IMG/VR virus record: IMGVR_UViG_3300030333_004588
Span: 1-64,000 of that record
Source: a virus
Direction: 5' to 3' (one strand)
DNA: 64,000 bases
Shown here: one piece after another, positions 3,448-48,187 of the stretch
Layout: every line of letters begins with the position of its first letter
How positions within the stretch are numbered: position 1 is the stretch's first letter
Made by a program: the position numbers and the translations under genes
Notes under the pieces: generated by a model
What the model was told of the DNA's origin: nothing
What the model saw: only the letters and a program-made list of their open reading frames with translations
Database searches by the model: none

Positions 3448-3547
3448 AACTTTTTTTCTTCCTTTTTGGTTTTATTTTTGGTTGTATTCTTTTACGGAAA
3501 GTCTCTTCTTCCAGTTCTTCCCATTCTTCCCAATCATATTTCGGCAT
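3386..3547 (-). CDS. 53-aa acidic/basic peptide (not in ORF track)
   Basis: Manual translation MPKYDWEEWEELEEETFRKRIQPKIKPKRKKKSYDEINKKQNTKFNKKHPNRN*; AGGAG RBS and a sigma70 promoter immediately upstream. Confidence 0.7.
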   Translation of the reverse strand: MPKYDWEEWEELEEETFRKRIQPKIKPKRKKKSYDEINKKQNTKFNKKHPNRN

Positions 3548-21035: not shown

Positions 21036-21089
21036 AATAATCTCTTTGTTTTAATTATCTATATATACATATATATATAAATATGTTAA

Positions 21090-21569
21090 TTAATCAAAAA
21101 TAATGAATTTTTTATCTATTTTTTTAGAATACTTTAATGCAGAACTTGTTCCATCTGTGACTTTACCATCTTTACAAAATGCAACTACATTATCACTATA
21201 TTTAACTAAATCCTTATTTCGTTTATGGTAATTTCCAACATTATATTGTTTATTATATCTAAATGCCCCAAACACACAATGTTGGTTATGTGATTCATGA
21301 TAAGGTGGAAACTCACTATAATCTATATCAAAGTCAAGTGAGAATTGTTTTGCATATTTATCTGCACCTTGTTTTGCACCACCACTAACTATTTCTAAAT
21401 CACTACCAATTTTTTCTTTTAATTTAAAAATAAAATCCTTTATTTTTCTTTTATTAGTATAACTTCTACTTCCTATGATTGCTACTTTCATCATCGTTTC
21501 TTTTTTGTCTCCTTGGTTTCTTATCTGGGTCTCTATTGACAAACTCCCAAGTCTGTTTAAAATTCTCAA
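21090..21569 (-). CDS. SLOG/DUF2493 (YspA-like) protein
   Basis: IIGSR, VSGGAKQGAD, RN, GT; true start is likely MMKVAIIG near 21494. Confidence 0.75.
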   Translation of the reverse strand: MRILNRLGSLSIETQIRNQGDKKETMMKVAIIGSRSYTNKRKIKDFIFKLKEKIGSDLEIVSGGAKQGADKYAKQFSLDFDIDYSEFPPYHESHNQHCVFGAFRYNKQYNVGNYHKRNKDLVKYSDNVVAFCKDGKVTDGTSSALKYSKKIDKKFIIFD

Positions 21570-36369: not shown

Positions 36370-36401
36370 TTAGGTTGTAATATCCCTATTTTTCATAACT
36401 G

Positions 36402-36431
36402 AATTTAATAATAAAACCATATACTTGTCAA
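36402..36431 (-). promoter_or_regulatory. Sigma70-type promoter of the DNA polymerase
   Basis: A tract-GC-TTGACA-N18-TAAATT. Confidence 0.65.
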
Positions 36432-46309: not shown

Positions 46310-47074
46310 TTATGAATTAAATAATTCATCAAAAGCTTCTGAAGTGTCTTTCACTTTGGAAGACTCTAAATCAGCACTTGTTACGGTATCTTTTTCTTCA
46401 TTATCATTTGATTCTGTATCGTCTTCTTCTGATGGATTTAACCATTCATTCAATACACCTGATAAATCATCATAAGATAACTCTTGATAAATTTCACGAA
46501 TGTCTTGTTGTTCTTTGACCTTTTCCAAAATTTCAGGTTCATCTGAAATTGGTGTTTGATTAGGTTTTACTCTAATCTTTGTTGTAGGGAAACTCGCTCC
46601 AGTTTCCTCTGCAGATATGAACTCAACAACAACATCACGACCATTAACTGGGTCTGTTATGTCACCATAATCAGGGTCAGCAATTACTGAAAGAAGTTCT
46701 TGGTATACGGTTTTACCGAATCCCCAAAACTTTACTCCTGCCTTTTCCTCACCTCTAACGATGACTGGTGCAAAAGTTCTCATTTTTGCCTCTAATTTAC
46801 GAGCCAATTGATAATCTTCTTTATTACCACTTCCACGAAGTTTCTGTGCAAACTCTTCAATCGGGTCTGGTCTACCAAAGGATATTGGTGAAAGATATGA
46901 ACGATTGTTAAGATTGTAGTGGAAAAATAACTCAATAAAAGGATTGTCTTTATTGAATGAATAAGGTACGATTCTTATTTGAGTTTTACCTGGTTGTGGT
47001 TTCCAAAGACTTGATGTTCTGTTGTTTGTAGTTTGAAGTTGTGATAACCTCTTACGAATAGCATTTAAGTCCAT
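46310..47074 (-). CDS. Single-stranded DNA-binding protein (gp32-like)
   Basis: LWKP...IRIVP, FGKTVY, DPVNGRD; acidic tail ending FDELF. Confidence 0.85.
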   Translation of the reverse strand: MDLNAIRKRLSQLQTTNNRTSSLWKPQPGKTQIRIVPYSFNKDNPFIELFFHYNLNNRSYLSPISFGRPDPIEEFAQKLRGSGNKEDYQLARKLEAKMRTFAPVIVRGEEKAGVKFWGFGKTVYQELLSVIADPDYGDITDPVNGRDVVVEFISAEETGASFPTTKIRVKPNQTPISDEPEILEKVKEQQDIREIYQELSYDDLSGVLNEWLNPSEEDDTESNDNEEKDTVTSADLESSKVKDTSEAFDELFNS

Positions 47075-47187
47075 TATTTATCTCCTATTAATTTATATTC
47101 ATTGTTCAATTTATAATCAAGTGTAACCTTGATACATTAATAAGTATAAGATATATTTGTAAAAAACGGATTTATTTTTATTTTTCG

Positions 47188-47260
47188 CAAAAAAAATGGT
47201 CATCTTGTTTTTAAGTTTGTAAATAAGGTGGAAACTAAAAATCGTGTGACCATTTTTTTT
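47188..47260 (-). terminator. Long imperfect hairpin with T tracts downstream of the ncRNA
   Basis: AAAAAAAATGGTCA...TGACCATTTTTTTT with an inner TTTTTA(A)GTTT/AAACTAAAAA pairing. Confidence 0.6.
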
Positions 47261-47278
47261 AAATCTATGAAATTTTTT

Positions 47279-47665
47279 GGGAATGTGGGATTAACGATTA
47301 CCCACAACTTAAAGCTTGGATTTTTTCTACCTTGAACCTAACACCCATCAGTTACGATGATTCTCCTCAGGATGGTTAATCCCATTGAAGTGGTTACAAC
47401 ACCTGTGTCATTACTTTATCTCTCCAAGTTTAGATTGATTCAGTCATAAAGTGGGATTTCAGTATTACCCTTACCCACAACAAGGTCAATAGAATCGTTT
47501 CTATTGTTTTTTCTTCAAGTACATTAGATGATTGATGTCTCAACTACTCCACCATTCGGCCTTGTAGGTTCACCACGAACTCATCTTGGATTACCTTATG
47601 GGCTTCTAAAGGATACCCATTATTCGGTCAATTCCATACAGAGTTAATTACTCTCTGTACTTTCC
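47279..47665 (-). ncRNA. Large structured non-coding RNA (family not identified)
   Basis: No ORF in the track, GC-richer than its flanks, 10 or more local and long-range helices; G-U pairs favour the minus strand. Confidence 0.7.
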
Positions 47666-47779
47666 AAAATTTCAAATTGTCAAAAAACTAATTTACTTAA
47701 GACCAATTAAGTAAGTTATATTTATATATATATACGAAAAATCTCAAACCGTATTTTTTTTTATTTTTTTTTTAATTTT

Positions 47780-48187
47780 TTATTTTAACCACTCATTTAC
47801 ATCAATAATTGAGTGTATTTTAGTAGGTATTTTTGTTAGACCACTCTCATTTGTTAATAAAAGTGTATTTTGAAACTCATTCCAATCAACTATATATTTT
47901 TTATCTAAAATTCCATTATTCTTTGAACGAATAACTTCATTTAATGCATTGATTGTATAGAGTGTATTAGATTGTTTCTTTCTATGAAGTGATATAGTAT
48001 CTATTGTTGGTTCTTGAAAGTCTTCATTGAATTCAACATTGTATGTGCATAACAATTGATTTGGGTCATTAACATCTGTAAAGACATAAATCTTATCATA
48101 TAAAATTTTATTACATGAAACTATAATATCAATAGTCTCATTGAGTTTCTCTTGTTTAGTGAATGTGCATAGTAATTGAGTCTTCAT
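47780..48187 (-). CDS. Hypothetical phage protein
   Basis: ORF track; QLLCTF...HRKKQSNTLYTINALN. Confidence 0.6.
   Translation of the reverse strand: MKTQLLCTFTKQEKLNETIDIIVSCNKILYDKIYVFTDVNDPNQLLCTYNVEFNEDFQEPTIDTISLHRKKQSNTLYTINALNEVIRSKNNGILDKKYIVDWNEFQNTLLLTNESGLTKIPTKIHSIIDVNEWLK

What the first reader, a model, noticed from the sequence alone, without database searches (positions are those of the whole stretch)
47279..47665. ~390-nt ornate non-coding RNA upstream of the ssDNA-binding protein gene
The only long gap in the window is densely self-complementary. Local hairpins (plus-strand coordinates): 47637-47659 (UACAGAG/CUCUGUA), 47598-47620 (AUGGG/CCCAU), 47487-47506 (CAAUAGAA/UUCUAUUG), and two related GUGGG...CCCAC hairpins at 47451-47478 and 47284-47306. 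There are also CUUCA-AUGG/CCAU-UGAGG and UCAUC/GAUGG stems. Long-range helices: UGAACCUA (47565-72) with UAGGUUCA (47333-40); ACAAGG (47560-65) with CCUUGU (47480-85); UCCAAG (47585-90) with CUUGGA (47423-28), which crosses the first and so forms a pseudoknot; and GGAAU/AUUCC closing the ends. A second UCCAAG near the 3' end could compete for the same partner. An AT-rich promoter-like region lies upstream and a long T-tailed hairpin downstream. I see no tRNA, tmRNA, RNase P or group I/II intron hallmarks. Inference: an independently transcribed large phage RNA in the spirit of GOLLD/ROOL, possibly a new class.
Basis: partly seen in the sequence, partly recalled or inferred. Interest (0 to 1): 0.88.

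Follow-up and report, generated by a model that had tools for sequence, protein, structure and literature searches.

The report
Nested two-core manA phage RNA gene
The gene-free gap before this marine phage's DNA-binding-protein gene encodes a real, very abundant, intricately folded RNA of about 410-430 bases; it is not a new class but an enlarged form of the known "manA" RNA, with a second manA-like core built inside the first, and it looks like a gene of its own, not a switch for its neighbour.

Summary
The flagged gap holds a genuine structured RNA on the minus strand. Rfam places it in the manA family (RF01745): 60.9 bits against a cut-off of 55.2 for the 3' half, and a weaker second match for the 5' half.

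On 44 non-redundant homologues from uncultured marine phages, a 19-helix model is 98.7% paired, and 62 of 95 pairs change on both sides. The two halves are nested, not tandem. A covarying 8-bp helix shows that the second core sits inside stem P8 of the outer manA.

Its three long-range helices and its pseudoknot partner do not; each strand has a better, covarying partner.

Contigs from four marine metatranscriptome studies cover only 47266-47699. Neither flanking gene is covered. A template-switch adaptor marks the 5' end.

With its own promoter-like motif and a terminator before ssb, this points to a stand-alone, stable RNA.

A 2026 preprint shows that single-core manA RNAs build RNA-only cages through kissing loops. 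The matching loops covary here.

This scan has already reached the same reading on at least five other genomes.

Verdict: a new variant of a known kind.

The parts
47715..47760 (-). Promoter-like region: A-tract, conserved TTTGRGA, then a TA-rich box (ATATATATAAATATAAC at 47731-47715)
   Evidence: Conserved across homologues. The box WTAYWTWTWWWTRTAWC occurs only twice on the minus strand of the 64-kb window, here and in front of ssb. Its function as a promoter is inferred.
47693..47715 (-). Variable 5' stem-loop (CUUACUUAA..UUAAGUAA) ahead of the conserved leader
   Evidence: A hairpin is present in nearly all homologues with different sequences and lengths. The fold is weak in the window (-6.2 kcal/mol). 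The one adaptor-marked RNA 5' end (47699) lies inside its 3' arm.
47675..47689 (-). Conserved leader AGUUUUUUGACAAUU (boxA-like)
   Evidence: Nearly invariant in 40+ homologues; variants read AGTTCTTTGACAATT. That 15-mer lies up to 222 nt upstream of 16S rRNA in 2 of 120 bacterial genome hits. This is a weak lead, not proof.
47266..47699 (-). Extent of the accumulated RNA as seen in metatranscriptome contigs
   Evidence: contigs of runs X15, X17, X18 and X19 (four studies) cover only this span. The 3' limits are 47266, 47268 and 47273. The letters beyond 47699 match a template-switch oligo, and those beyond 47273 are T17.
47666..47674 (-). P0, 5' strand (UGAAAUUUU); pairs with 47268-47276
   Evidence: Every homologue tested has a leader/tail duplex, with different sequences (GAAAUC/GAUUUC, UUGGAAU/AUUCCAA). 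Cognate duplexes average -7.97 kcal/mol against -5.81 for non-cognate pairs, permutation p < 2e-4.
47636..47660 (-). P1 hairpin; the loop holds the self-complementary UAAUUA
   Evidence: 8 bp, 98.3% paired, 3 pairs change on both sides. The loop reads UAAUUA or a near variant in most of the 44 sequences, and the variant UUAUAA keeps the palindrome.
47631..47635 (-). P2, closing helix of the outer core, 5' strand (GGAAU); pairs with AUUCC 47280-47284
   Evidence: 100% paired in 44 sequences; G-C changes to A-U in 9.
47593..47628 (-). P3a: the manA signature hairpin (GACCGAAUAA ... UAAGGU) of the outer core
   Evidence: Matches the Rfam consensus GaCUGAAUAA..UAAgGu. Eight of its 9 pairs change on both sides.
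47526..47586 (-). P4a-P7a: three-way junction of the outer core; L5 reads GUGGU(G)
   Evidence: P4a has 6 of 6, P5a 4 of 4 and P7a 4 of 4 pairs with changes on both sides. P6a is variable and poorly aligned.
47513..47520 (-). P8 lower stem, 5' strand (ACUUGAAG); pairs with CUUUAAGU 47307-47314. This is the helix that makes the architecture nested.
   Evidence: 8 bp, 98.6% paired, 6 pairs change on both sides.
47487..47506 (-). P8 upper hairpin (CAAUAGAA-ACGA-UUCUAUUG); loop L8 is ACGA 47495-47498
   Evidence: The hairpin is visible in all homologues, though the MAFFT register is imperfect (74.8%). L8 covaries with L9.
47329..47486 (-). Inserted inner core, closed by ACCUUG 47481-86 with CAAGGU 47329-34. 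It holds a P9-like hairpin (47451-78), P3b (47413-44) and the three-way junction P4b-P7b (47339-47410).
   Evidence: In the closing helix, 4 pairs change on both sides. P3b, P4b, P5b, P6b and P7b are all 98-100% paired with changes on both sides. Rfam aligns this part, plus P9, to manA at 60.9 bits.
47315..47320 (-). Pseudoknot strand UCCAAG; pairs with the L3b loop CUUGGA 47423-47428
   Evidence: 100% paired; two positions covary (CUCAGA/UCUGAG, CUCUGA/UCAGAG, CUUAGA/UCUAAG).
47285..47305 (-). P9 hairpin (GUGGG..CCCAC); the loop centre UCGU 47294-47297 is complementary to L8
   Evidence: Stem 100% paired. The L8/L9 pairing is 100% paired and 3 of its 4 pairs change on both sides (ACGA/UCGU, GCGA/UCGC, AUGA/UCAU). 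The Rfam consensus loops aCUgu/acAgu are also complementary.
47186..47261 (-). Terminator-like long hairpin: A-run, AUGGUCA...UGACCAU, U-run
   Evidence: -17.3 kcal/mol, z -4.5. The stem covaries among homologues (GGUUC/GAACC, GCCCC/GGGGC, UGGCC/GGCCA, GUGAGC/GCUCAC). It is not covered by the RNA contigs.
47113..47147 (-). Second copy of the TA-rich box (ATACTTATTAATGTATC), plus a hairpin, just upstream of the ssb ribosome-binding site
   Evidence: Inferred to be ssb's own promoter.
46310..47074 (-). gp32-like single-strand DNA-binding protein gene (the neighbour, not part of the RNA)
   Evidence: Pfam gp32 (PF08804), 3.4e-13; PHROG SSB.

Best explanation
This is a stand-alone gene for a structured, non-coding RNA of the manA family (Rfam RF01745) in an enlarged, two-core form.

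Architecture. The outer core has all the manA modules: P1, closing helix P2, the GACNGAAUAA/UAAGGU hairpin P3, the three-way junction P4-P7, P8 and P9. A second, partial core is inserted into the 3' side of the internal loop of P8. That inner core has its own closing helix, a P9-like hairpin, P3b and P4b-P7b. It is tied to the outer core by a pseudoknot between loop L3b and the P8 strand. A leader/tail helix (P0) clamps the whole fold.

Expression. The RNA is most likely transcribed from its own promoter-like element and read into a long terminator hairpin before ssb. It then accumulates, at far higher levels than its neighbours, as a trimmed species of about 410-435 nt whose 3' end sits at the foot of P0.

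Mode of action (inferred, not shown). It acts as a folded RNA particle, not as a cis switch. By analogy with single-core manA RNAs, which form 8-, 10- and 60-mers through L5-L7', L8-L9' and L3-L8' kissing loops, it probably pairs with copies of itself. In that picture the nested form would act as a covalently linked pair of protomers.
For: Family:
- Rfam manA scores 60.9 bits (cut-off 55.2) at 47280-47479(-), and there is a second manA-like match of 23.4 bits, E 9e-4, at 47486-47659(-).

Structure:
- 95 pairs in 19 helices are 98.7% paired in 44 sequences. 62 pairs change on both sides. The covariation score is 0.518, against at most 0.10 for slid controls, and 0 of 500 shuffles reach it.

Nesting:
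- The helix 47520-13 with 47314-07 has 6 of 8 pairs covarying.
- The inner closing helix and the pseudoknot also covary.

P0:
-.

Stand-alone and abundant:
- Contigs from four metatranscriptome studies cover only 47266-47699, with summed word depth up to about 15,000 and none on ssb or the upstream ORF.
- One 464-nt contig ends in the reverse complement of a SMART template-switch oligo beyond 47699 and in T17 beyond 47273, which sets the strand and a 5' end.
- The same rare TA-rich box precedes both the RNA and ssb.
- A covarying terminator hairpin lies between them.
- Three homologues have an extra gene between the RNA and ssb, and one has no ssb downstream.
- Relatives with the same ssb, including Mel-JY01 and Flavobacterium phage immuto, have a gap of about 100 nt and no manA.
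- The canonical manA of cyanophage S-SSM7 abuts a tRNA gene, not a coding start.

Assembly:
- Preprint 10.64898/2026.07.01.735769.
- L8/L9 complementarity covaries here.
- The P1 loop is a 6-nt palindrome, and a double change (UAAUUA to UUAUAA) keeps it.
Against: - The RNA evidence comes from assembled contigs, which cannot give exact ends, strand or level. The 5' end rests on one contig and on an adaptor sequence that I recognised from memory. The T17 could reflect oligo-dT priming on the encoded A6 run.
- The promoter is a conserved motif only. The generic sigma-70 scan found nothing convincing there.
- The RNA lies upstream of ssb in 41 of 42 informative homologues, so a link to ssb expression is not excluded.
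- Covarying kissing loops cannot tell intramolecular from intermolecular pairing.
- No two-core manA has been tested for assembly, and cages have been shown only in vitro.
- L5a (GUGGUG) and L7a (GACA) of the outer core are not complementary to each other, unlike in canonical manA.
Confidence: 0.6

Rival explanations
1. It is a cis-acting leader, either a riboswitch or a protein- or temperature-sensing element. It would control read-through of the 47186-47261 terminator into ssb, and the abundant short RNA would be the terminated or processed leader.
For: - Rfam and the 2010 description class manA as a candidate cis-regulator or riboswitch.
- The RNA lies directly upstream of ssb in 41 of 42 homologues.
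- A terminator lies between them.
- The A-run at the foot of the terminator could pair either with the leader U-run (47682-87) or with the terminator's own U-run, which is a possible switch.
Against: - ssb has its own copy of the promoter-like box downstream of the terminator.
- The RNA contigs stop at 47266-73, about 80 nt before the terminator's U-run, and none covers ssb.
- Three homologues have another gene between the RNA and ssb.
- Sister phages run the same ssb without the RNA.
- The canonical manA of S-SSM7 precedes a tRNA.
- Only the U-run/A-run alternative is seen; no other mutually exclusive pairing is supported by covariation.
Confidence: 0.2
2. It is a stand-alone stable RNA that acts as a monomer. 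It would bind and sequester, or scaffold, a host or phage protein (for example an RNase, Hfq-like protein or ribosomal factor), with all covarying loop contacts being intramolecular.
For: - The same expression and structure evidence as the best explanation.
- L3b pairs within the same molecule with the P8 strand. This suggests that contacts which are intermolecular in single-core manA have become intramolecular here.
- Several long, invariant loops, such as UAAGGGUAAAACUGAAAU in the P9-like hairpin, have no RNA partner that I could find.
Against: No protein partner is indicated by gene context. The 135-aa and 697-aa upstream ORFs have no family, and the upstream gene varies. Single-core relatives self-assemble without protein.
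Confidence: 0.15
3. It is the translational operator through which the gp32-like SSB represses its own mRNA, as in phage T4.
For: It lies upstream of a gp32-family gene. T4 gene 32 mRNA carries a 5' pseudoknot followed by an AU-rich tract; I state this from established knowledge and did not test it here.
Against: - The RNA is separated from the ssb start by about 190 nt that include a terminator and a promoter-like box.
- It belongs to a family found next to many unrelated genes and tRNAs.
- Relatives with the same SSB lack it.
Confidence: 0.02
4. It is a new class of giant ornate RNA unrelated to any known family.
For: Its size, complexity and stand-alone expression resemble those of GOLLD and ROOL.
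Against: manA matches above the Rfam cut-off. The signature P3 motif and the three-way junction are present twice, and L8/L9 complementarity matches the manA consensus. No GOLLD or ROOL match reached the gathering score.
Confidence: 0.03

Closest known systems
manA RNA motif (Rfam RF01745; Weinberg et al. 2010, PMC2864571); canonical example Synechococcus phage S-SSM7, 151363-151563
   Same: - It shares the P1 hairpin, the G-rich closing helix and the P3 hairpin with GACUGAAUAA...UAAGGU.
- It shares the three-way junction with a GUGGUG-type loop.
- It shares a P8 stem-loop whose loop is complementary to the loop of the terminal GUGGG...CCCAC hairpin P9.
- It occurs in marine phages.
- It scores 60.9 bits against a cut-off of 55.2.
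   Different: - It is about 410-435 nt, not about 190-200 nt.
- A second partial core (closing helix, P9-like hairpin, P3b, P4b-P7b) is inserted in P8 and tied back by a pseudoknot.
- An extra leader/tail helix P0 is present.
- The inner core has no P8 of its own.
- Inner L6 is not a GNRA loop.
- Outer L5 and L7 are not mutually complementary.
- The carrier phages are not T4-like cyanophages. Their nearest cultured relatives by SSB are Microcystis phage Mel-JY01 and Flavobacterium phage immuto, which lack the RNA.
- S-SSM7 scores 123.6 bits, against 60.9 here.
Cage-forming manA RNAs (manA_A0F1 60-mer; manA_pho34_A767 and others as decamers; bioRxiv 10.64898/2026.07.01.735769)
   Same: Same family. 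The loop pairs used there as intermolecular contacts (L8-L9', L3-L8', L5-L7') have counterparts here that are complementary. For L8/L9 and L3b, the complementarity is kept by covariation.
   Different: Those RNAs are single cores under 200 nt and were studied in vitro. Here two cores are joined covalently, and the L3b contact is with a strand of the same molecule. Assembly of this form is untested. The helix numbering I map onto theirs is my inference, because the figures were not available.
GOLLD, ROOL and other large ornate phage RNAs
   Same: It is a large, multi-helix, phage-borne RNA expressed apart from coding genes and of unknown function.
   Different: There is no sequence or structure match. 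It is smaller, and it belongs to a different, identifiable family.
rRNA-operon leaders (boxB-boxA, with a leader/spacer processing stem)
   Same: A variable hairpin is followed by a conserved U-rich GUUYUUUGAMAA-type element. A leader/tail helix brackets a stable RNA whose 3' end lies at the foot of that helix.
   Different: The resemblance is only partly tested: 2 of 120 genome hits to the 15-mer lie upstream of 16S. Most phage copies read UUUUUU, not UUCUUU. No Nus-factor or RNase III evidence exists.

Membership tests
manA RNA (RF01745) | Covariance-model score at or above the curated gathering score (55.2 bits) | tested here: met
   60.9 bits at 47280-47479(-). Note that the aligned span is a chimera of the inner core plus the outer P9. 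The outer core alone scores 23.4 bits.
manA RNA (RF01745) | P3 hairpin with the conserved internal loop GaCUGAAUAA ... UAAgGu | tested here: met
   Present twice (47593-47628 and 47413-47444). The stems covary.
manA RNA (RF01745) | Three-way junction (P4-P7) with a GUGGUG-type L5 loop | tested here: met
   The outer core has GUGGU(G) and the inner has GUUGUA. All junction stems covary.
manA RNA (RF01745) | Closing helix (consensus GGGaG / CuCCC) enclosing P3-P9 | tested here: met
   GGAAU/AUUCC in the window and GGGAU/AUCCC in most homologues. 100% paired, with one covarying pair.
manA RNA (RF01745) | Complementary L8 and L9 loops | tested here: met
   ACGA/UCGU; 3 of 4 positions covary and pairing is 100%. 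The consensus aCUgu/acAgu and S-SSM7 CUUU/GAAG are also complementary.
manA RNA (RF01745) | A single core of about 190-200 nt | tested here: not met
   There are two cores in about 410 nt, nested through P8. This is why I file it as a variant.
manA RNA (RF01745) | Homo-oligomerisation into closed assemblies (2026 preprint) | not testable with these tools
   Only loop complementarity and a palindromic L1 could be examined.
Riboswitch / cis-regulatory leader | An aptamer coupled to an expression platform with mutually exclusive pairings, on the same transcript as the regulated gene | tested here: inconclusive
   A terminator is present, and alternative pairing between the U-run and the A-run is possible. 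Against this, ssb has its own promoter-like box and no RNA contig bridges to ssb.
GOLLD / ROOL / other Rfam large RNAs | A match to the family covariance model | tested here: not met
   In the 64-kb window, only manA reached a gathering score.
tRNA / tmRNA | ARAGORN detection | tested here: not met
   No genes were found in the window.

The most novel reading that the evidence does not exclude
In infected cells the two-core RNA self-assembles, through its palindromic L1 and its L8/L9-type loops, into an RNA-only multimer or cage. Its geometry would differ from that of single-core manA because each chain already holds two interlocked protomers. If so, cage formation would be a natural, selected function of an abundant marine phage RNA and not an in-vitro curiosity.
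Probability: 0.25. Interest if true: 0.9.

Novelty: new variant of a known kind. Interest (0 to 1): 0.6.

Why it matters
manA has been listed since 2010 as an orphan riboswitch candidate. In 2026, single manA units were reported to build RNA-only cages in vitro, but with no evidence about what they do in nature.

This locus adds three things:
- It is a natural form in which two manA cores are fused and interlocked in one chain. That means the inter-unit contacts are under selection.
- Four independent ocean RNA data sets show that the RNA accumulates as a discrete, very abundant species while its neighbouring genes are not seen.
- Gene-context evidence (its own promoter-like box, a terminator, and a canonical manA abutting a tRNA) points away from the riboswitch idea.

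It also offers a defined construct of about 410 nt for structural work, and a widespread marine phage lineage in which to test the function of RNA assemblies.

Tried and rejected
They were 51-75% paired and no better than shuffles, so I rejected them.
- A tandem (side-by-side) reading of the two Rfam matches was rejected in favour of nesting, because of the covarying P8 lower stem.
- blastn of the gap against 50,697 phage records found no match.
- A pattern scan of viral contigs gave about 26 unrelated loci that turned out to be a coding motif (IVGKGK). None had an Rfam match, and I discarded them.
- The generic sigma-70 promoter and terminator scan was not above shuffles, and AT-rich stems fail its GC rule.
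- A conserved ORF was excluded. The longest sense ORF has a median of 31 aa, its position is not conserved, and every frame has many stops.
- Candidate tertiary pairs such as AAUGGG/CUUGUU and L5a GGUG with CAUC appeared in the covariation scan. They clash with better-supported stems, so I did not adopt them.
- Host link: the boxA-like 15-mer hit two Pelagibacteraceae single-cell contigs, but these hold neither the RNA nor the SSB. No host call is made.
- No back-joined (circular) form was seen among the contig joints.
- The terminator hairpin has no RNA-contig cover. I take this only as a hint of 3' trimming.
- A literature search for boxA sequences returned nothing.

Full report
SETTING

The window is 64 kb of a 74-kb IMG/VR phage record. 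It is about 30% G+C, and all genes lie on the minus strand.

The flagged stretch lies in a 705-nt gap. Upstream is a 135-aa ORF of no known family (47780-48187). Downstream is a gp32-like single-strand DNA-binding protein gene (46310-47074), followed by genes for RecA/UvsX, a 5'-3' exonuclease, a radical SAM protein, DnaB, a class II ribonucleotide reductase and a TonB-dependent receptor. ARAGORN finds no tRNA or tmRNA.

Yes. The minus strand folds to -101.4 kcal/mol (z -2.34; 0 of 100 shuffles as good). The plus strand folds less well (z -1.92).

Rfam gives one hit above its gathering score in the whole window: manA (RF01745) at 47280-47479(-), 60.9 bits against a cut-off of 55.2. A local search adds a second manA-like match at 47486-47659(-), 23.4 bits, E 9e-4.

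RELATIVES AND COVARIATION

The SSB protein recovered about 600 related viral contigs.
- Those with SSB at 79% identity or more share a gap of about 700 nt that aligns with ours at 70-88% identity.
- A sister set with SSB at about 70-73% identity has a gap of only about 96 nt.
- The cultured relatives Microcystis phage Mel-JY01 and Flavobacterium phage immuto also have short gaps.

A motif scan added more copies. After removing chance coding hits, 44 non-redundant RNAs were aligned.

My own covariation scan, followed by the pair-counting tool, gave a model of 95 pairs in 19 helices:
- 98.7% of cells are paired, against 34-43% when the partners are slid.
- 62 pairs change on both sides.
- The covariation score is 0.518, against at most 0.10 for slid controls.
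- None of 500 shuffles reaches these values.

An earlier version with four poorly aligned helices gave 94.0%.

All its local hairpins are supported, and so is the closing GGAAU/AUUCC helix.

Its three long-range helices are not. They are 51-75% paired and show no more covarying pairs than shuffles. The real partners are:
- CUUGGA (47428-23) pairs with the 3'-proximal UCCAAG (47320-15), and two positions covary.
- ACCUUG (47486-81) pairs with CAAGGU (47334-29).
- GAAC (47571-68) pairs locally with GUUC.

ARCHITECTURE

The decisive helix is ACUUGAAG (47520-13) with CUUUAAGU (47314-07). It is 8 bp, 98.6% paired, and six of its pairs change on both sides.
- Its 5' strand follows the first three-way junction, just as the 5' strand of P8 does in the manA consensus.
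- Its 3' strand directly precedes the last GUGGG/CCCAC hairpin (P9).

So the two Rfam matches are not tandem units.

The outer manA consists of:
- P1 (47636-60)
- P2 (47631-35 with 47280-84)
- P3a
- P4a-P7a
- P8
- P9

Inside the 3' side of the P8 internal loop it carries an inserted partial core with:
- its own closing helix
- a P9-like hairpin (47451-78)
- P3b (47413-44)
- P4b-P7b (47339-47410)

The L3b loop of the insert pairs with the P8 3' strand, forming a pseudoknot.

The loop of the upper P8 hairpin (ACGA, 47498-95) and the loop of P9 (UCGU, 47297-94) are complementary in every sequence. Three of these four positions covary. The Rfam consensus loops (aCUgu/acAgu) and the S-SSM7 loops (CUUU/GAAG) are complementary too.

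Outside P1, a leader/tail helix P0 (47674-66 with 47276-68) is present in every homologue tested, with differing sequences. Cognate leader/tail pairs are more stable than non-cognate pairs (-7.97 against -5.81 kcal/mol; permutation p < 2e-4).

No ORF is conserved.

EXPRESSION

Twenty public runs hold part of the stretch, and six are recorded as RNA. I laid contigs from four marine metatranscriptome studies on 46900-47900.
- Cover is confined to 47266-47699 in all four. There is none on the first 175 nt of ssb or on the upstream ORF.
- Summed word depth reaches about 15,000 in one run.
- The 3' limits are 47266, 47268 and 47273, at the foot of P0.
- One 464-nt contig from a poly(A)/SMART-type library carries CCCGTACTCTGCGTTGATA beyond 47699. 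I recognise this, from memory, as the reverse complement of the SMART template-switch oligo, which is added at RNA 5' ends.
- The same contig carries T17 beyond 47273. This is either an A-tail or oligo-dT priming on the encoded A6 run.

The adaptors set the RNA on the minus strand and give one 5' end at 47699.

Contigs cannot prove ends or levels. Even so, DNA contamination would not stop at the RNA's borders in four separate studies.

FLANKS

Upstream, homologues share an A-tract, TTTGRGA and a TA-rich box. These are followed by a variable hairpin and the nearly invariant leader AGUUUUUUGACAAUU.

Downstream, an A-run/stem/U-run hairpin (47186-47261; -17.3 kcal/mol, z -4.5) has a stem that covaries among homologues.

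After it comes a second copy of the TA-rich box and then the ssb ribosome-binding site. On the minus strand of the window this box occurs only at these two places.

I read the layout as: promoter, RNA, terminator, promoter, ssb. This is an inference.

The leader resembles rRNA-operon boxA. Its 15-mer variant lies up to 222 nt upstream of 16S rRNA in 2 of 120 genome hits, where about 0.2 would be expected by chance. That is weak support only.

LINKAGE

ssb follows the RNA in 41 of 42 informative homologues. Three of these have another gene in between, and one homologue has no ssb within 1.5 kb. The upstream gene varies.

Synteny is therefore strong, but strict adjacency is not required.

COMPARISON WITH WHAT IS KNOWN

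manA was described in 2010 as a riboswitch candidate of marine metagenomes, T4-like cyanophages and two gamma-proteobacteria. Later genome papers simply repeat that label.

Cyanophage S-SSM7 has one canonical 201-nt manA (123.6 bits). It ends exactly where a tRNA-Gly gene begins, a context typical of stable RNAs and not of leaders.

A preprint of July 2026 reports cryo-EM structures of manA RNAs under 200 nt.
- They form octamers, decamers and a 60-subunit T=1 cage.
- The cage is built from pentamers held by intermolecular kissing loops: L5-L7', L8-L9', L3-L8' and a GNRA-receptor contact.

Mapping their numbering onto the Rfam helices is my inference, but it is self-consistent:
- L6 is the GNRA loop.
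- L5/L7 are the GUGGUG/ACCA loops.
- L8/L9 are the complementary loops described above.

I found no paper that describes a two-core or nested manA.

MECHANISM, WITH ODDS

- That this is a manA-family RNA with the nested fold described above: about 0.95.
- That it is a stand-alone, stable, abundant RNA and not a cis leader for ssb: about 0.75.
- That it acts through self-assembly: perhaps 0.35.

For self-assembly, the support is that the contact loops are conserved by covariation and that the P1 loop is a 6-nt palindrome in most sequences. A UAAUUA to UUAUAA double change preserves that palindrome. Sequence alone cannot separate intramolecular from intermolecular pairing, and outer L5 and L7 are not complementary to each other.

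The rivals are:
- a terminator-controlling leader (0.2)
- a monomeric protein-binding RNA (0.15)
- a gp32 operator (0.02)
- a wholly new class (0.03)

EARLIER WORK IN THIS SCAN

After I had reached the manA, nested and preprint conclusions myself, a look-up showed that follow-up agents had reported the same two-core manA RNA upstream of ssb on at least five other genomes. They had also reported other enlarged manA-like RNAs elsewhere.

Two leads came from those notes, and I only partly tested them here: the boxA-like leader and the self-complementary loops.

VERDICT

The feature is real and highly structured.

Noticed in passing
L324:1501-1772 (Synechococcus phage S-SSM7, record 151363-151634): The canonical manA RNA ends at the very base where a tRNA-Gly gene starts. 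The annotated hypothetical CDS SSSM7_180 lies inside the manA RNA and overlaps the tRNA, so it is probably a mis-called ORF.
   Followed up: partly
window 47675-47689 (-): The nearly invariant leader AGUUUUUUGACAAUU, after a variable hairpin, resembles the boxB-boxA layout of rRNA operon leaders. The variant AGTTCTTTGACAATT lies up to 222 nt upstream of 16S in a Hoeflea and an Omnitrophota genome (L243, L271).
   Followed up: partly
window 47715-47731 and 47131-47147 (-): The same rare TA-rich box (WTAYWTWTWWWTRTAWC), each followed by a hairpin, precedes both the RNA and ssb. It occurs nowhere else on the minus strand of the window, and a looser relative sits near 21066-21101. It may be a phage-specific promoter class.
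   Followed up: partly
window 47645-47652 (-), P1 loop: The loop holds the self-complementary hexamer UAAUUA in most homologues. A minority has UUAUAA, a double change that keeps the palindrome. One clade instead has the canonical manA-like CGACGG loop.
   Followed up: partly
L091, L130, L153, L081, L082 (3' of the RNA): A subclade carries an extra conserved module of about 70-80 nt after the closing helix (UUGGAAAGUAUCC...GUAUUCCC...CUUUCCAA). It repeats the GGAAAGUA and AUUCCC motifs of the RNA's ends, as if it were a third partial unit or a second outer clamp.
   Followed up: no
L005 versus L027 and the window (P8 lower stem): L005 has the 5' strand of P8 seen in L027 (AUCUUCUG) but the 3' strand type of the window (CUUCAAGU), so the helix is mismatched. 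This looks like a recent recombinant between RNA variants.
   Followed up: no
window ~3490-3540 and ~36390-36430 (-): Canonical GCTTGACA-17-TATATT / TATTAA promoter-like sites follow ordinary GC-rich terminators. The phage also carries a SusC-like TonB-dependent receptor (CarboxypepD_reg plus Plug). The two features hint at different host groups, so the host remains open.
   Followed up: no
window 47498-47588, run X15 contig 2: One RNA contig replaces 89 nt of the outer three-way junction with 94 unrelated letters. Co-occurring strains therefore differ mainly in the P4a-P7a region, which is also the most variable part of the alignment.
   Followed up: no
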